Assembly (NCBI GenBank): GCA_027923505.1 | Contig: BROI01000020.1 | Coordinates: 558,001 to 622,000, forward strand | Direction: 5' to 3' | DNA from: Mayamaea pseudoterrestris | Taxonomy: Eukaryota | DNA: 64,000 nucleotides | In this document: positions 35,094 to 42,924 of the stretch, piece after piece | Position numbering within the stretch: the first letter of the stretch is position 1 | Layout of the letters: the number at the start of each line of letters is the position of its first letter | Translations under genes and position numbers: made by a program | Notes under the pieces: generated by a model | What the model was told of the DNA's origin: nothing | The model's input: the letters and a program-made list of their open reading frames with translations, nothing else | Databases searched by the model: none

Positions 35094-36083
35094 ATGTCAG
35101 GCAACACTATGGAGTCTGCAGCAACGGCAAGCGACACTGCCGAAACGACTACAGATATCAAGCAGCTCCTCTCCGACCTTCACGTCAAGCGCGAAACCAT
35201 TGACACGGAGGCGCAAGCCATTATCGGTGAACTGACCGCTCCCGTTGTGGATCCGACGGACGACTCCAAGACGGTGGCACCCATGGGTTTTGACACGCCG
35301 CTCGTCGACCACGACGGCTATCCGCGAGGTGACATTGACGTCTATCGAGCGAGGAGCTTGAGGCAGAGACTCAACGAGCTGCAGACGGATCGAACATATA
35401 TGACGCAGCAAATGGAGAAATACTTGCAGCAACTACTTTTGCACGAGTCGCCGCAGGCGAGTGAGGAGCTTGAAAAGGAAATGGAGGCGCGCAAAGCGGT
35501 CAAGCCGAAACCGAAGTTCGACAAGGCAACGGGCAAGTGGATCGTGACAACGTGGGATGGGACCATGGCCGTTGGAGGCGATAATGTTGCAGCAAGAGTT
35601 GGAAGCGCGGCGAGTGACGAAGCTGTTGCTGCTGCAAATAGCATGGTTACGTCTTCGAGTACTGACGAGACTACTACCACTCCAACTATTCCTTCCACTA
35701 CCGATGCTACTCGATCAGCCGTTCCCGTCGAAACATCGAAACTTGGTTTACTGGCGCATGCGAGTCCGTTTGCGCGCATTGATTCCGTGGCAAACGACTC
35801 GCCGGCGCAAAAGGCGGGCCTGCAACAGGGCGACTTGATTGTATCCTTTGACGGTTTGACCATCAGCGACGATTTGGATTGGTTGTTCCAGCAAGTGGCG
35901 GCGCGCGTATCGCACGCGGCGGAGCATGTGGAGGATTTGACCGTCATTGTCATGCGCAGCGAGACCAACGGCGGTGATGAGGCAAACGACGACCATGCAA
36001 TCTTCGAGGAGCTGCGCCTTTATCCAGGCGCTTGGGCGGGAAGAGGCTTTTTGGGATGTCACTTGGTGCCAATCAAGAAGTAA
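35094..36083 (+). CDS. PSMD9: 26S proteasome assembly chaperone Nas2/p27 (Nas2_N + PDZ)
   Basis: MGFDTPLVDHDGYPRGDIDVYRAR, PDZ PFARIDSVANDSPAQKAGLQQGDLIV, C-terminal WAGRGFLGCHL. Confidence 0.93.
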   Translation: MSGNTMESAATASDTAETTTDIKQLLSDLHVKRETIDTEAQAIIGELTAPVVDPTDDSKTVAPMGFDTPLVDHDGYPRGDIDVYRARSLRQRLNELQTDRTYMTQQMEKYLQQLLLHESPQASEELEKEMEARKAVKPKPKFDKATGKWIVTTWDGTMAVGGDNVAARVGSAASDEAVAAANSMVTSSSTDETTTTPTIPSTTDATRSAVPVETSKLGLLAHASPFARIDSVANDSPAQKAGLQQGDLIVSFDGLTISDDLDWLFQQVAARVSHAAEHVEDLTVIVMRSETNGGDEANDDHAIFEELRLYPGAWAGRGFLGCHLVPIKK

Positions 36084-36702
36084 ATGCGTTGGAGATTGGA
36101 GAGACAATGTCGTTCGTTATTCGTCGGGAGTCGCTGGATGGCATGAGGCTTGGATTAAACTTCAACTACCGGTAGAAATTGGAATGAGTCACGTCGTTCG
36201 TCGTGCGTTCGTCATCTCGTCTGCTTCTTATCATTCTGCTTGCGTTACATTATCTGCACACGCAATACAAACTGCCATTGCGTGATACATAGCATCTTGC
36301 CATTCCAGCTATCGTGGTAGTAGCAGTGCAAGCAGCGCTTGTAGTAAATGCATGTACCAGAGTTTTGGCAACGAAACCCCCCCCCTTGAACTTCAAACAC
36401 GGTTTTGAGTCAATACTCCAGTTCGGTTTTCTCGGGAATTGATTTTACGCCAGTGCGCATCTCCAAATTGGCAAATGGCCAATATGAACGCGGCGGAAGC
36501 GCGAGTCTCGTGAAACAAGTGGAGAGGCAATGAATGGCGCGGGTAACTGCGCATCTTCCGTCACAATGTTTGCGTTGCAGGTGAGTTCGGAAAAGAATGG
36601 CTTCTGGTTCACTTCTTCAGTCTTGCGCATCTTGCTCCGACTTCCAAGGAGGCAACTCGGCAGACTCATTTTAGTTTCATTCGTCGTAAACACACCTACA
36701 AC

Positions 36703-36918
36703 ATGGAGCAAAAGCAAATTTGCGTGCCCCAGACGCGGCTGGGCAAAGTCGTCACGCCGGCAGCAGACTCTGGAACAGCCACAAGCAATGTTACTGGACG
36801 CGCGGCGGGAGTAGAGTTGAGGCGCATACTGATTGGGACTCTTCAGCAAGTGCTCGAAATCATCTCTACTGCCTTGACAGAGACGGAAGATGTCAGAGAA
36901 AGTGTCCCCGAGGAGTAG
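36703..36918 (+). CDS. Putative microprotein 1 (71 aa), unnamed family
   Basis: MEQK...ELRRILIGTLQQVLEII plus acidic tail; motif shared with 37601 and 40974. Confidence 0.6.
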   Translation: MEQKQICVPQTRLGKVVTPAADSGTATSNVTGRAAGVELRRILIGTLQQVLEIISTALTETEDVRESVPEE

Positions 36919-37600
36919 AAAATTGTACAAATAAATCTATTAAAGCTTTTAGATGCGAAAGTTTGGCGTTGCTTCTTGTGCAAGTGAACGCATTAGATTG
37001 GCTAGCAGGTCAGCAGCCGCAATTGCTTTGTATATATCGTTAAAGCACGTCTCTGCGCTCGCTATTTCTTTTCGAATGCCTTCACGTATTTATAGTTACA
37101 CATATACTATATTATTTGGTTGCATTATCTCAACTAATGTCGCTACAGTCTCCAGTACGCCAGACGCGACCGTTGTATGAAGAGCAATGCTGGCAGGCCT
37201 CACGAACTCACAAAGGCATCTTTAACATCGAGAAGAATCCATTTCATCCGGACTAAGCACGATTTTGAGCCATTCAGACTTTCGATTTCTCAAAAGTAGA
37301 TGCATGAGAATTCGAAGGAAGCGCTGCGAGTCATTGGAAGACTGCATTGGCGGATAAAAAGCTAAAACGCACCTTTTATCGAGAGCAACATGGGAGAGAC
37401 ACGGGAATGATATCTTAGTTCAAGGTAATTTGAGAAAACATTTGCTTCTGTATCTTTTCTATATACGCGTATCTCTTCTTAATCAGTCTTGGCGAACAGA
37501 ACAGTGGTGTTTGCTCCGTCGTCCAGTGATGCGTTTCACCAGAGAGCAAAGACCCGCCCGGCACTAGTTGTTCATAATATATTGGATTAAGCCTTATAAA

Positions 37601-37837
37601 ATGGAGAACAAACACACATATGAACACCAACCTTGGCTTACCGAAGCAGTCCTCGAATCTTTGAGAGAGCAAGAATCCAATTCAGGCTATGTTTCGCGAA
37701 ACACGGAGCCTACGCTCATGCCCAGGACGAGAGAAGAGTTAAAGCGTATCTTGCTTGGCACCATTAGGGAAGTGCTTGAGATGATATCATCAATCACGCT
37801 TGAAACAGAGGAAGAGGACGATATGTTTTCTGATTAA
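37601..37837 (+). CDS. Putative microprotein 2 (78 aa), unnamed family
   Basis: MENK...ELKRILLGTIREVLEMI plus acidic tail ETEEEDDMFSD. Confidence 0.62.
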   Translation: MENKHTYEHQPWLTEAVLESLREQESNSGYVSRNTEPTLMPRTREELKRILLGTIREVLEMISSITLETEEEDDMFSD

Positions 37838-38010
37838 AATGCTAGCCAAAAGATTTATACTTTTGAAACCTATATTTGATTGCGCAGTAGCTTGCGGGCG
37901 CCCGCCGTCTATTCGACTGGTCAGCTGCGTGTTTGCTCACTGGTTCACGTTTCACTAAGGTAGATCGTCTCGTCTAATGGCCACTAATGGTGCAACGGGC
38001 ACTCGCCATC

Positions 38011-40017
38011 CTATCCAAACCACCGTCGCTTCAGCTCGGCCCGAATCATGTCCAGCTCCAAGGTCGAAGCACCGGCAATGGAGCTATTTTCGTTGGCACG
38101 TCGAATCAAGTATGGCATGACAAGCTTCACTGGCCCATAAGGCAGATACTTGTACGCTCGGTATTCCAGCAGTCCGAGGTTGTAGGTGAGGTGATCCATC
38201 ATGCCGTAGAGCTGCGCAAACGAAATGGTCGGACCCTTTCGATCAATGCCAATCTCATTCATGGCGGCAATCGCCTTTTCAACGCTCTGCTGGTTGTGTG
38301 ACGCAACCATGAGTTCCACTTGCTTGTCCGTCGTCTTGGCATGCTTGAGCAAAAACTCTACGGCCCCATTGTACGAAGCGTGCGTCTCTTCAATCGTGTC
38401 ATGAATCGGCGACAGATAGTTGAGCGTTTCCGCCAAAACTCGTTCACTCTCCATGTAGGCGCCCCGCACAAGCTTGGCACCAAAGTGATAGCCGTATCGC
38501 TCGGACCGTTCCACATCCGTCTGCAACCGCGGCAGCGCATCCTTCAAGTAACACTGATAGGTATTGTAAATGACAGGAAACTCGCTGACGCTCGTTGCGT
38601 TAAACTTGCGCTGCAAGGTCCACACCAAGTTGTCAATCGCCGGTTGAAACCGCGCCTGCTCGGCGTCAATCAGTAGGCGCGTACCAACGCGCGCCGCCTC
38701 CTCGGCCAACGTGTAGGCACGCTCCAGCATGCGCTCCATGAGTTCCACCTCCTCGTCGGTCGGTGTCGCTAGTGCGAGCGGACCAACTTCAATGCAACTG
38801 GCAGTCAGCTGCGGCAAGTCGCGCGGCTCGAGTAGCATGGACCAAGCAATGTAGTCTATGGAATTCTTCTTGTGTGAATCAGAAACACTACCACTACTAT
38901 CATGCTGATCATGATCCAGCTTTTCCAACAATTCCCTCAGTTTCGTTTCATCGTTCCGAAAGAACAAGTGAAAGCCCGTTGTAAACTCCTCGTGCGAAAT
39001 GGTACCGTCTCCATTTTCGTCAAACTTGCGAAACAAGTTTTGCGCCTCGACAATTGCTCTCGACATGCGCTCGAGCAACTTTGGATTGCCGAGGGCCGTG
39101 ACTTTAATGGCCGCGTATCCATCCTTTTGCAGACTGGCCACGTCGCGAATGCACTTCAAAAAGTTGTCCAAGTGGGCGTCGCACTTTTGCTCCGACTCGT
39201 AGTCGTAGACGCGCACCTTGGGAGTCATGCCGGCGACGCTATTGACGGTGGATTGGGTTGACATGGTTATATCGTTATTATGTTCGAGTGATTGCTGCTG
39301 TGAATGGGACTTTGCATTGTCATGGCTGCTCGCACTGTTATTACTTTGTTGCTGCTGCCCCGATCCATCATCCTCGGCTGCAAAATCCAAAATGCTGCCA
39401 ATGCCCGCCTGCTCCAGCTTGTATATGACTGGTTGAATGCTTGTTTCGTCCGTTCCCGCGCAAAAGTGTCCAAAGAGCGTCTGCTCCATTAGCTTGTCTG
39501 TAAGAGTGTCGCCCAGAACCTTGCGCGTGTAGCCAAGCAGGGGTTCGGCGCGGCGCACAAAGAATGGAACGCGGCAAAGCCCAAAGGCGGTATAGGCGAC
39601 GAGCAAGTCCTTGGTCGTCTTGGAGCTCCAGGCTGCCGTCGAATAGGAAAAGTCGGGAATGGGATTTGATTCAAATGTAGTAGCTGTAGTAGATGACGCA
39701 TCGGCGTCAAAGGACGCCAAGGATGCAGAGACTCGCTTCGAACCGAGGCTGCTGCTGCTAGATGGGTCGACTGCTGCTAATTTCTCAAGCTCCTTTGCAG
39801 CAGACTCCTCCTCCAAGCGACTCTTGGCCGCCATGGAAAAGCGTTGAAACTTATTGCGTATTGGGGGATTTCGGTGAGCGATACATTGACTCGTCATGAG
39901 GCTGCATGGAGGCGTCAAGCGTCGATGCGAAAATTGTTGATGCAGCTGCCGGCTCGCCGTTCGAATCATGTCGTAACAGCGACTCGATGATCGAACCAAT
40001 GCTAATGCAGTAATCAT
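38011..40017 (-). CDS. PRODH: Proline dehydrogenase (mitochondrial-type presequence) with an EF-hand insert
   Basis: FGHFCAG, AIKVTALG, LLIDAEQ, YNTYQCYLK, GAKLVRGAYM, MVASHN, FAQLYGM, YKYLPYGPV, MPYLIRRANEN; EF loop DENGDGTISHEE. Confidence 0.96.
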   Translation of the reverse strand: MITALALVRSSSRCYDMIRTASRQLHQQFSHRRLTPPCSLMTSQCIAHRNPPIRNKFQRFSMAAKSRLEEESAAKELEKLAAVDPSSSSSLGSKRVSASLASFDADASSTTATTFESNPIPDFSYSTAAWSSKTTKDLLVAYTAFGLCRVPFFVRRAEPLLGYTRKVLGDTLTDKLMEQTLFGHFCAGTDETSIQPVIYKLEQAGIGSILDFAAEDDGSGQQQQSNNSASSHDNAKSHSQQQSLEHNNDITMSTQSTVNSVAGMTPKVRVYDYESEQKCDAHLDNFLKCIRDVASLQKDGYAAIKVTALGNPKLLERMSRAIVEAQNLFRKFDENGDGTISHEEFTTGFHLFFRNDETKLRELLEKLDHDQHDSSGSVSDSHKKNSIDYIAWSMLLEPRDLPQLTASCIEVGPLALATPTDEEVELMERMLERAYTLAEEAARVGTRLLIDAEQARFQPAIDNLVWTLQRKFNATSVSEFPVIYNTYQCYLKDALPRLQTDVERSERYGYHFGAKLVRGAYMESERVLAETLNYLSPIHDTIEETHASYNGAVEFLLKHAKTTDKQVELMVASHNQQSVEKAIAAMNEIGIDRKGPTISFAQLYGMMDHLTYNLGLLEYRAYKYLPYGPVKLVMPYLIRRANENSSIAGASTLELDMIRAELKRRWFG

Positions 40018-40973
40018 GGTCCTTTATAAGAGGTATTCGAGTTGTCTTGTTAAAAAAGCTGCCAAGGAAAGACGTGACGAAGAAGTAGCCTTCGACTTGT
40101 TCGAAGTCGAAAGAAGAAGGATCCGCCGCGACGGCGCGGTTGTGAATGTCTTAGCGTGACATTACATAACCAGTGCGATGCGAGGATAATTTGAAAGATC
40201 CGGGCAGCTAGCGATGAAATATGTCAGTCAATGCTGGATGAGCCTTGGCGGCGGTCTCTATTGCTATTCGTGGACATGCTTGCTTGTAATTGTACCCTCA
40301 TGACTATTCGCCAAGGTGGACACGGCAGGCAGGAATATGGCCGATACTACTGATGTCGACTTTCTAGCCAGTACAGAGTACAGTGCATCACAACTTAATC
40401 GCCTGCTTGGCTCTCGATTTGCAAAATGACATCATTAGATACGCATCATCCTTACGGCATCATACATATGGACTGTTACACTTGATAGCTAGCAAATTGT
40501 CGATTCTTGTAGCTCTCCTTCCATGCAAGAGAGAAACATGACCGAAGCTCGTGACGATGTAACTCGTCGCCCAAACTGCCGTCGACGCAGCCAAACCTTT
40601 GGCACTTTTGGCAAAGAACGGATCGCGGAACTTGAACCGCGAGATACAAAACTCCCGAGAAGATGCCGGCAGAAGAATATGCGTCAAAAGCGATTCCCAG
40701 GAACCGAACCGACCTACTTTGAGGCACCGCTGTACACAATCGTCGCGAGAAAACAAGTAGATGTGCCTGTCATTTCCCTACGTCGGAGTGGCTGTGTTCG
40801 AAGAATTCGAAGAATACCTGTGAGTGCGTGGCTTGTTTTCGCGGAAACGCGAACAACCGTGATCTACGAAAGTGTGAATCACAATTAAACCTCGAGAGCT
40901 CACATCCCACAAAATCCAAGCGCGCTCACTTTCCCACAAAATCTCAATGCCAACGAAAAACACTTGCTGCACC

Positions 40974-41228
40974 ATGGAGCCAAAGACAACCGAAGACCCT
41001 CCGATCTCCCTGATTGGAGCGATGAAGATATCCTCCGCGAGGGATGCACCATGTTACAGAAACTCTCCAGGATCTGATTCTGCTGGCGGTTGGGCCACAT
41101 TTCCAGCGACTTCTACCCTGCGCCGCCCCACTCACAAGCGCCAAAAGACAGCGGCGGACTTGCACAAGATACTTCTTCAGACGCTTGACGATGCCATCAA
41201 GATTGCAACGAAAGATTTGGACGATTAA
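40974..41228 (+). CDS. Putative microprotein 3 (84 aa; upstream in-frame ATG at 40947), unnamed family
   Basis: MEPK...DLHKILLQTLDDAIKIATKDLDD; same amphipathic helix pattern as microproteins 1 and 2. Confidence 0.5.
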   Translation: MEPKTTEDPPISLIGAMKISSARDAPCYRNSPGSDSAGGWATFPATSTLRRPTHKRQKTAADLHKILLQTLDDAIKIATKDLDD

Positions 41229-42318
41229 CGCGGCTGCATGTGAGAGTCGTTGGACATGCCACGTGGTATTTTACGCAGTTTTTACCGGCGGGCAATCATT
41301 GGATAAGTTTTGGATTTGGGAGTCGACGTAATGAATCTTATAGAGTTTTGTTTTGTTATACGGTGATTGCTATGTAAGATTAGCTTGATAATTTGTGCTT
41401 CCAGCCATCGTTGCCGTCGTCTGCCTGCACGACGTCGACACAACTTGTTGCGCTTTGCGCCATACACCGCCACATATCTTTCGCATCGCGACAACGCCTG
41501 GAAGCACTAGCGCTCCACCGCTTCCTGATCCGACTTGCTCGACACTGCATGCTCTAATAGTTACAAGCCTCCGCGAGTTGCCCCATCGACGGGTGGCCCT
41601 CGAGCCCCATGTTTTCCGAGAGAACACACAAGCAGTGCATCGAGATAGTACGACTGATAGTTCGTTCAAAAGGCGAGTCACATACTGGCGTCAGCGAGTA
41701 AAATCCGAAGACGAGACTAGCCACTCCGTTGTTCCCTTTTTCATGACGATGTACATGTTCACCAATAAATCTGAACCAGCCACTCCGTTGTTCCCTTACA
41801 TGACGCGCCAGCTCGCGTTCGTGTTACGCTCCGCGCCCCTTCCGATTGGAACACCCCAATTCGACAATTCGAACTCCCGATCGGAACACCCGATTGGAAC
41901 ACATGGGCGGCGGTTGCCGAAATGATTAGCTGAACCTGTTCAGGACTCAAAAGCTGTTTCGCCTCTTACCAACCTAAAATGAGCTGATTCCAGATTGCCA
42001 AATCTATTCATACCGCAGCCAACACGACGTAATGGCACTTCCAATCCTCTTGCGCTCTTGGCCTGTCGTGTAGTAGCGAAGCTGTTTTGTCGATTATGCA
42101 ATGATAGGAGTGCTGCTCAAGGTTTGCTGGACGAGATTCGCGTCGATCGCCAAAACCGCACGGAAACGGATGTCGTACCGCAACAGATTGTCGTAGCGGT
42201 TCTCAAACTGTCAATTTTTGAAATCGCAATCCATCGATCATCCATCCATCAACATGGTCGGCGTCGTCCCTCCAGTCAACAAGACACCCTCCTGCTTACT
42301 ATATTATCGTCTAGCAGC

Positions 42319-42924
42319 ATGATCGGATTAATATTTAGACCCTTTGCAGTAGCATTCACTGCCTTTGCGGTTTCGAGGAGTCATTTGTTCCATGGATCGT
42401 CGTCGTCAAAGTTCCGTCACCCATCGAATCTTCCAATGTCGACAAGCGCGTTGCAAGCAGCAACCACAACGACATGGTTCATAGACGGAAACAATTTGCT
42501 TGCTTCCCGAGGAGTTCCAAAGGATTTAAATGTCGTTCAGGAGCGACTTGGTTGTATAGAAACCTTGCAGAGTGACGCTACAATCCAAGTGATGCTTGTC
42601 ATGGATGGACCCAAGAATCGACAACTGGCAGAAGCAGCCGAGAGCGTCAGTGAAATGAAACAAGAAAATGACGAGAGTACACCAGTCAAGACACATTCCG
42701 TCGGATCCTGCGTTCGCATACAGCTACCGCCAGGCCAGTCGGCGGACGACTACATTTACGAGTCGGTGGCCGTTCGTTCCTTGAGCAATGGCAATGCGCT
42801 GCAGATTGTCACGGCGGACGGCGAGCTTCGAAGGCGCGTCAGTAGCATGGTAAAGAATGTGGTGCATCCAAGCAAGTTTTGGAAAACGTACTTGCCAAGA
42901 CTGGCGGGTGAGAAGCGACTGTAG
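42319..42924 (+). CDS. YacP-like NYN/PIN-domain ribonuclease with probable bipartite plastid leader
   Basis: Acidic motifs WFIDGNNLL, LVMDG, SADDYI and IVTADGELRRRV; hydrophobic N-terminus followed by a Ser-rich segment. Confidence 0.8.
   Translation: MIGLIFRPFAVAFTAFAVSRSHLFHGSSSSKFRHPSNLPMSTSALQAATTTTWFIDGNNLLASRGVPKDLNVVQERLGCIETLQSDATIQVMLVMDGPKNRQLAEAAESVSEMKQENDESTPVKTHSVGSCVRIQLPPGQSADDYIYESVAVRSLSNGNALQIVTADGELRRRVSSMVKNVVHPSKFWKTYLPRLAGEKRL

What the first reader, a model, noticed from the sequence alone, without database searches (positions are those of the whole stretch)
36703..41228. Family of three unannotated microproteins flanking proline dehydrogenase
Seen: three short + strand ORFs start ME(Q/N/P)K, have unrelated middles, and end in the same amphipathic helix plus acidic tail: ELRRILIGTLQQVLEII, ELKRILLGTIREVLEMI and DLHKILLQTLDDAIKIA. 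The first two also share an upstream CTTCTT(AA)CAGTCTTG-type initiator-like element (TCAGTCTTG at 36617 and 37483). The similarity is clearer in protein than in DNA, which argues for coding constraint. Inference: a small-protein family with a short helical interaction motif, such as an adaptor, inhibitor or transcriptional co-regulator, that gene callers would miss. Any link to PRODH is positional only.
Basis: partly seen in the sequence, partly recalled or inferred. Interest (0 to 1): 0.7.

Follow-up and report, generated by a model that had tools for sequence, protein, structure and literature searches.

The report
Diatom microproteins sharing one docking helix
Three tiny, apparently undescribed genes in a diatom-like genome encode floppy proteins whose main conserved part is one greasy-faced helix, probably a plug for a groove on a partner protein, with the histone-methylation subunit Dpy-30 as a weakly supported candidate.

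Summary
The three + strand ORFs exist as described: A 36703-36918 (71 aa), B 37601-37837 (78 aa), C best started at 40974 (84 aa). A and B are tandem duplicates, 5' flank included, and their helix diverges like coding sequence (pS 0.81, pN 0.16 over 18 codons). C has a full-length orthologue elsewhere (P0001, 48%; last 30 aa 21/30) and A/B have a motif-bearing relative (P0002), so the genes are very likely real. C's kinship to A/B is probable but statistically weak. No further copy was found in the genome and no Pfam or PDB family matched. The shared TCAGTCTTG does not fit the diatom initiator; it lies in a duplicated block that reads like a 5'-UTR intron. Best reading: disordered microproteins with one docking helix for a partner's groove. 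The lead partner is the Dpy-30 dimer (predicted complex 0.37, best control 0.03: a weak pass, possibly from memory of solved complexes), about 25%. The PRODH link is positional only. The scan had not noted this family on other DNA.

The parts
36574..36664 (+). 5' flank of ORF A, homologous to the 5' flank of B: donor-like GT at 36581 (alternative GT at 36543), pyrimidine tract, CAG ending at 36620 (the 'TCAGTCTTG' element), third short block. Candidate 5'-UTR intron of 40 or 78 nt; splicing not shown
36703..36918 (+). ORF A, 71 aa, M-E-x-K start with A at -3 and G at +4, variable linker, helix, acidic tail
36814..36867 (+). conserved amphipathic helix of A (18 codons)
37418..37543 (+). 5' flank of ORF B: donor-like GT at 37425, pyrimidine tract with TATATA at 37460, CAG ending at 37486. 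Candidate 62-nt 5'-UTR intron, or TATA plus initiator
37601..37837 (+). ORF B, 78 aa, tandem paralogue of A; relative P0002; low RNA-contig cover, strand unknown
37736..37789 (+). conserved amphipathic helix of B
38011..40017 (-). neighbour: proline dehydrogenase with EF-hand insert and Arg-rich N-terminus; separates B from C; not part of the family
40974..41228 (+). ORF C, 84 aa from the second ATG (93 aa from 40947, weak context); full-length orthologue P0001
41136..41147 (+). basic K-R-Q-K patch of C, kept in P0001; resembles a nuclear localisation signal (label from my own knowledge, not tested)
41157..41210 (+). conserved amphipathic helix of C (within model helix 60-83; pLDDT 91 for residues 61-80)
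40792..41135 (-). 344-nt GT..AG intron on the minus strand, skipped by one depth-2 contig of run X3: a spliced RNA antisense to C

Best explanation
A, B and probably C are real genes for 71-84 aa, mostly disordered proteins that arose by local duplication (A/B recently enough to keep 5' flank similarity; C earlier). Selection keeps the M-[ED]-x-K start and one 17-20 residue helix with a wide hydrophobic face (positions 2, 5, 6, 7, 10, 13, 14, 16, 17 and an invariant Thr at 9), followed by acidic residues. With no catalytic or folded domain, they most likely work by laying that helix into a hydrophobic groove of a partner protein, as stand-alone competitors or tethers. Shown: ORFs, constraint, relatives, predicted helix. 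Inferred: translation and groove docking. The partner I would test first is the Dpy-30 dimer of the H3K4 methyltransferase complex (about 25% of my belief), where the microproteins would compete with ASH2L-type helices; other helix-binding grooves share the rest.
For: pS 0.81 vs pN 0.16 in the ORF frame; in the other five frames pS is 0.11-0.46; 1,447 of 200,000 random placements of the 17 differences keep 12 or more of 18 residues. P0001 matches C end to end (40/84; 12/24, 7/30, 21/30 by thirds); P0002 carries the A/B helix (19/50). All three starts have A at -3 and G at +4. The allele contig of run X1 over 36624-38073 has 7 differences, none in either helix, no stop, no gap. AlphaFold2: low confidence outside helix 60-83. 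Hydrophobic arc 40-240 degrees over 5 sequences. For Dpy-30: one Dpy-30 locus in the genome, no RIIa match over cut-off; positions 10/14/17 have the i, i+4, i+7 spacing of ASH2L hot spots L513/L517/V520 (PMC13063893, passages); free ASH2L 510-529 peptides compete for the groove (same paper); predicted complex of B 40-74 with a Dpy-30 dimer scored 0.37, best of 3 controls 0.03, runs agree in at least 84% of contacts, partner pLDDT at least 62. That mark was reached by 51 of 78 solved and 2 of 108 mismatched pairs, but at 0.60 or under by only 5 of the 78 solved and by all 4 mismatches that passed (of 180).
Against: The A/B block was picked for protein similarity, so the pN/pS contrast is partly selected. 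The X1 allele differs from the window at 3 residues of A's N-terminal part and 1 of B, with no synonymous change in either ORF: the linkers are weakly constrained. Only 2 relatives among 1.84 billion representatives (E 2e-4, 6e-4), each a singleton cluster. C-to-A/B link weak. A spliced antisense RNA overlaps C. The Dpy-30 pass is weak, used a stand-in (P0045, 42 of 47 identical), the alignments were not used, a like complex is solved (4RIQ) so it may be from memory, and i/i+4/i+7 spacing fits many amphipathic helices. The literal motif formula given in PMC13063893 does not fit the five helices (columns).
Confidence: 0.55

Rival explanations
1. The helices bind each other: A, B and C form homo- or hetero-oligomeric helical bundles, and the disordered parts or acidic tails do the work.
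For: Positions 2, 6, 9, 13, 16 follow a 4-3-4-3 repeat and the face is wide; the only PDB sequence hits to C's helix are designed helical repeats and barrels (E 0.003-9.6); three genes are clustered.
Against: The helix is only about 2.5-3 heptads long and has Thr and Gly/Gln in its middle; no natural coiled-coil family matched. Self-association was not modelled.
Confidence: 0.15
2. One or both of A and B are decaying duplicates; the helix similarity records past selection only.
For: All 4 allelic codon changes in A and B are non-synonymous; relatives are very rare.
Against: Synonymous sites between A and B are near saturation (pS 0.81) yet both keep start, frame, stop, helix and 5' flank; no stop or frameshift in the allele; C's orthologue is intact.
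Confidence: 0.13
3. The helix binds membranes or lipid droplets rather than a protein.
For: Hydrophobic moment 0.47-0.57 and a wide apolar face.
Against: An invariant Thr and Leu at fixed positions in 5 of 5 sequences suggests a shaped partner; no aromatic residues in the helix; acidic tails with 4-7 D/E in the last 12 residues.
Confidence: 0.1
4. They regulate the adjacent proline dehydrogenase (for example through its EF-hand) or the adjacent Nas2/PSMD9.
For: Position only: they flank PRODH and follow Nas2.
Against: PRODH begins with an Arg-rich, acid-poor presequence-like stretch (9 R, 1 D/E in 60 aa); the microproteins have 1-2 R and 2-6 D/E in their first 30 aa, so mitochondrial import is unlikely (inference). 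Tandem duplication explains the cluster.
Confidence: 0.05
5. C is a real but unrelated gene; the family has two branches only by chance resemblance (compatible with the other readings).
For: HMM cross-scores at chance level; no 5' flank similarity of C to A or B (1,712 and 1,302 of 2,000 resamples score as high).
Against: Best non-self motif match in the window, same rare start motif, same strand and layout within 4.5 kb, profile-profile E 0.00046 in the same register, P0002 mixes features of both types.
Confidence: 0.22

Closest known systems
DPY30-binding motif (DBM/SDI helix) of ASH2L/Bre2; also BAP18 and AKAP95 (PMC13063893, PMC4312765, PMC9440282)
   Same: Short amphipathic helix near a C-terminus with anchors at i, i+4, i+7; a Dpy-30 gene exists in this genome; weak predicted docking. 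A closer residue-level likeness to the ASH2L helix is my recollection and comes from no call.
   Different: Stand-alone 71-84 aa proteins with no SPRY or PHD-WH domain; no sequence hit to ASH2L in PDB searches; binding not shown.
A-kinase anchoring protein (AKAP) helices binding PKA RI/RII D/D domains (PMC8339350)
   Same: Helix-in-groove logic; DPY-30 and PKA-R D/D domains are one clan. Pattern likeness to AKAP helices is recalled, not from a call.
   Different: No RIIa domain over cut-off in this genome; no Pfam hit; no evident targeting domain.
microProteins in the strict sense (truncated copies of a larger protein's interaction domain; definition from my own knowledge)
   Same: Small, single interaction element, plausible dominant-negative action.
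   Different: No longer parent protein with this helix was found in the genome or among 1.84 billion representatives of any length.
Diatom Inr-like element TCAHW (PMC4686930)
   Same: The shared element begins TCA and is pyrimidine-flanked.
   Different: TCAGT has G at the H position and lies 86 and 118 nt upstream rather than 26-61; true TCAHW matches lie 26-48 nt upstream of each ATG, though 68% of P. tricornutum 80-nt flanks have one.

Membership tests
ASH2L-type DPY30-binding motif | amphipathic helix of about 14 residues | tested here: met
   AlphaFold2 helix 60-83 of C; wheel; moment 0.47-0.57
ASH2L-type DPY30-binding motif | hydrophobic anchors at i, i+4, i+7 (L513/L517/V520) | tested here: met
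   positions 10/14/17 = L/L/I, I/L/I, L/I/A, L/I/V, I/L/T in A, B, C, P0001, P0002; weakly discriminating
ASH2L-type DPY30-binding motif | literal hydrophobic formula of the review (Phi-x-Phi-x-x-Phi-Phi) | tested here: not met
   read against the columns; I could not check the formula against the ASH2L sequence itself
ASH2L-type DPY30-binding motif | binds a Dpy-30 dimer 1:2 | tested here: inconclusive
   weak pass 0.37 vs best control 0.03, stand-in Dpy-30, like complex solved
ASH2L/Bre2 proteins | SPRY domain (and PHD-WH) in front of the helix | tested here: not met
   71-84 aa, no Pfam domain; not filed as ASH2L
AKAP | a PKA regulatory D/D domain to bind in the same organism | tested here: inconclusive
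   PF02197 best E 0.41, under cut-off; introns or divergence could hide it
AKAP | binding to RI/RII shown by overlay or pull-down | not testable with these tools
   bench test
microProtein (strict sense) | homologous to the interaction domain of a longer parent protein | tested here: not met
   no longer protein found, at the low sensitivity a 20-aa motif allows
microProtein / smORF-encoded protein | under about 100 aa with coding-type conservation | tested here: met
microProtein / smORF-encoded protein | translated (ribosome footprints or peptides) | not testable with these tools
   only unstranded contigs available
diatom Inr-like element | TCAHW consensus 26-61 nt upstream of ATG | tested here: not met
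   TCAGT, 86 and 118 nt upstream
diatom Inr-like element | overlaps the transcription start | not testable with these tools
   contigs cannot show starts

The most novel reading that the evidence does not exclude
The cluster encodes natural stand-alone Dpy-30-groove ligands: tiny proteins that occupy the site normally taken by ASH2L-type helices and so tune H3K4 methylation, or recruit Dpy-30 elsewhere, in a lineage where three profile searches did not detect ASH2L. C carries a possible nuclear signal and is overlapped by a spliced antisense RNA. They would be the natural counterpart of the ASH2L-derived inhibitor peptides.
Probability: 0.22. Interest if true: 0.8.

Novelty: new variant of a known kind. 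Interest (0 to 1): 0.47.

Why it matters
It is a credible, apparently undescribed microprotein family (no Pfam, PDB or Atlas hit; paper searches listed nothing on it) of the kind gene callers tend to miss, with a single motif that can be tested as a synthetic peptide. If the partner is Dpy-30 it would be an endogenous regulator of an interface now targeted with designed peptides, and a handle on how diatoms control H3K4 methylation. If not, it is a lineage-restricted small-protein cluster of moderate interest.

Tried and rejected
Expression: no RNA holder is listed on record. Runs X2 and X3 gave no contig cover over ORF A (bins 36204-37256); a hole in contigs proves nothing and is not counted against A. 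Homologue searches that were blank: word-based search with B; JGI metagenome contigs by alignment (281 pattern matches, 0 confirmed) and by a 16-codon degenerate pattern (0); ESM Atlas with B and with C 50-84; Pfam (one sub-threshold TraB hit, E 0.043); PDB by sequence and by fold (1 match, E 8.2); Rfam over 36000-42400; earlier scan notes. Own-genome patterns: 5 hits each (3 are A, B, C), 11 (1 is C), 1 (control 3; not opened); the 14 non-family hits lie inside long proteins, in antisense frames or in frames that do not start a small ORF of this layout. A wider family without the Thr was not found. ASH2L was not detected by PF00622 (8 of 8 loci read), PF21198 or PF21257; this does not show absence. 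The shared 9-mer alone is not significant (12% of 3,000 resamples, and 6% for the ungapped-style score); the 0 of 2,000 result used cheap gap extension chosen after I saw the blocks. A D-C fusion by splicing from 40820 is in frame only with a rare GAG acceptor and P0001 starts at the M-E-P-K, so rejected. The sigma-70 scan does not apply to a eukaryote. Whether gene callers have annotated A-D could not be looked up. Supplements of PMC4312765, which may hold the DBM peptide sequences, could not be seen, so the residue-level comparison with ASH2L is open.
Full report
Setting. The window is G000:C20:558001-622000 of a 30.6 Mb, 41-contig genome. It is diatom-like: GT-AG introns and a Dpy-30 domain whose closest named relatives are diatom proteins. 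Gene order: ankyrin protein (-), Nas2/PSMD9 (+, 35094-36083), ORF A, ORF B, proline dehydrogenase with an EF-hand (-, 38011-40017), a basic 121-aa ORF D (+, 40523-40888), ORF C, a 201-aa ORF and an SMC-like gene (the SMC label is my reading of the translation).

Observation. A (36703-36918, 71 aa), B (37601-37837, 78 aa) and C (40947 or 40974 to 41228) are present with the quoted motifs. A and B share 11 of 17 motif residues, 9 of them with different codons. Over 18 codons pS is 0.81 and pN 0.16; in the other five frames pS is 0.11-0.46 and pN 0.25-0.36; 1,447 of 200,000 random placements of the same 17 differences preserve as many residues. The block was chosen for its protein similarity, so this P of 0.007 is optimistic. 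The starts of A, B and the second ATG of C all have A at -3 and G at +4; C's first ATG does not. M-[ED]-x-K follows 5 of 612 in-frame Mets of the window, 3 of them these ORFs.

Relatives. A profile of the three C-terminal regions against 1.84 billion representatives gave 2 proteins at E up to 0.001. P0001 (77 aa, JGI) aligns with C from the second Met to the end, 40 of 84 identical, with 12/24, 7/30 and 21/30 by thirds. P0002 (105 aa, Logan) carries the A/B helix and has an internal M-D-x-K at the matching place. Both are singleton clusters and no DNA context could be had, so synteny and inter-species dN/dS are untested. A second search with all five found nothing more among 357 candidates. 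In the own genome, three protein searches found only A and B for each other, and four degenerate patterns found no further member. The family is therefore one local cluster here, and rare in the databases at the sensitivity a 20-residue motif allows.

Is C one of them? Probably (about 75-80%), but not shown. For: best non-self match of 76,450 17-mers, same start motif, strand and layout, profile-profile E 0.00046 in the same register. Against: probability 32.7% in that comparison, an A/B/P0002 HMM scores C at 4.9 bits, and C shares no 5' flank similarity.

The upstream element. The 9-mer alone is matched in 12% of resamples. It is part of a collinear similarity, 36574-36664 versus 37418-37543, reached by 0 of 2,000 resamples with gap costs chosen after seeing it. 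In both copies the block opens with AG|GT and the 9-mer contains CAG| after a pyrimidine tract, the anatomy of a 5'-UTR intron (62 nt in B; 40 or 78 nt in A, against 79-344 nt for the four introns seen). The diatom Inr-like consensus is TCAHW at 26-61 nt from the ATG (PMC4686930, passages), which TCAGT does not fit; matches to it lie 26-48 nt upstream of each ATG. B does have TATATA 25 nt before the A of TCAGT, so a core promoter is not excluded. No contig shows the splice.

RNA. Runs X2 and X3 are RNA, because they skip two GT..AG introns of the downstream gene that X1 and X4 retain. All four runs are one study. X3 has depth-2 cover at B's codon 45, and the bin depths fit a contig of about 250 nt over the ORF (inference); strand is unknown and PRODH converges on B. 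X2 covers parts of D and the end of C. One depth-2 contig of X3 skips 40792-41135, a canonical minus-strand intron: a spliced RNA antisense to C. Antisense RNAs are reported in a model diatom (PMC7445176, search listing only). The X1 contig over 36624-38073 differs at 7 places: three change residues 6, 8 and 20 of A, two change residue 45 of B, none touches a helix or breaks a frame.

Structure. AlphaFold2 on a 5-sequence alignment gives C mean pLDDT 64, with 91 for residues 61-80 in helix 60-83 and 47-61 before it. Across five sequences the hydrophobic positions span 40-240 degrees of the wheel, with Leu2, Leu6 and Thr9 invariant. No Pfam, PDB, fold or Atlas match.

Mechanism. A chain with one constrained helix and nothing else most likely acts by binding (inference from established knowledge of helical short linear motifs). 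The pattern recalled to me the helices that dock on D/D dimers (AKAP on PKA-R, ASH2L on DPY30); that likeness is from memory. Tests: the genome has one Dpy-30 locus, in two exons, and no RIIa domain over cut-off. ASH2L's hot spots L513/L517/V520 have the spacing of positions 10/14/17, the groove also takes BAP18 and AKAP95 helices (PMC13063893, passages and section 22), its contacts are mainly hydrophobic (PMC4312765, part 1 of 3), and free ASH2L peptides compete for it; PMC8339350 and PMC9440282 were read as passages. B 40-74 with two copies of a stand-in Dpy-30 domain (P0045, 42 of 47 identical to the own one) scored 0.37 against a best control of 0.03; runs agree in at least 84% of contacts; partner pLDDT at least 62. 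The mark was reached by 51 of 78 solved and 2 of 108 mismatched pairs, but at 0.60 or under by only 5 of the 78 solved and by all 4 mismatches that passed, of 180. A like complex is solved, so the pass may show likeness only, and a hydrophobic groove may accept many amphipathic helices. The review's literal motif formula does not fit. I put Dpy-30 at about 25% and helix-in-groove docking on some partner at about 55%. ASH2L itself was not detected by three profiles, which does not show absence. A PRODH link is unlikely: PRODH has an Arg-rich N-terminus and the microproteins do not.

Verdict. A real, apparently undescribed small-protein cluster (searches listed no paper on it; the library lacks most subscription journals). 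It is not an ASH2L, AKAP or strict microProtein family member on the tests run, but may work like a free D/D-docking helix. Translation and partner are unproven. Interest 0.47.

Noticed in passing
window 40523-40888 (+): ORF D, 121 aa, very basic (27 R+K, 13 D+E), no Pfam hit, partly covered by an X2 contig (40609-40847); possibly a fourth small gene of another kind. A donor-like GTGAGT lies at 40820.
   Followed up: partly
window 40792-41135 (-): Canonical 344-nt intron skipped by one X3 contig: a spliced antisense RNA over ORFs C and D, upstream of PRODH on its strand; no long ORF in the spliced form.
   Followed up: partly
window 38011-40017 (-): Proline dehydrogenase with an EF-hand insert (residues 324-349, over Pfam cut-off) and a low-complexity Gln/Ser/His insert.
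   Followed up: no
L028 1317-1992 (-) (G000:C17): The genome's Dpy-30 has a long Gln/Pro-rich N-terminus of about 145 aa before the D/D domain, which is split by a 79-nt intron.
   Followed up: partly
G000, whole-genome searches: Dpy-30 is present but ASH2L was not detected by PF00622, PF21198 or PF21257; worth checking whether diatom Dpy-30 has another main partner.
   Followed up: partly
window 35125-35206 (+): Dense allelic differences (16 listed in 82 nt) at the start of Nas2/PSMD9, seen in X1, X2 and X3, with a different 5' flank: a strongly diverged second haplotype.
   Followed up: no
window 41716-41904: Short direct repeats in the intergenic region after C: a 23-nt pair (96%) and three 18-nt copies.
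   Followed up: no
window 42319-42924 (+): 201-aa ORF with a signal-peptide-like start and no Pfam family over cut-off; its FIDGNN stretch recalls NYN/PIN-type nucleases (recalled, untested).
   Followed up: no
window about 5115 and 29989 (+): Two near-identical 17-residue stretches turned up in the motif scan, suggesting a duplicated segment or gene pair in the window.
   Followed up: no
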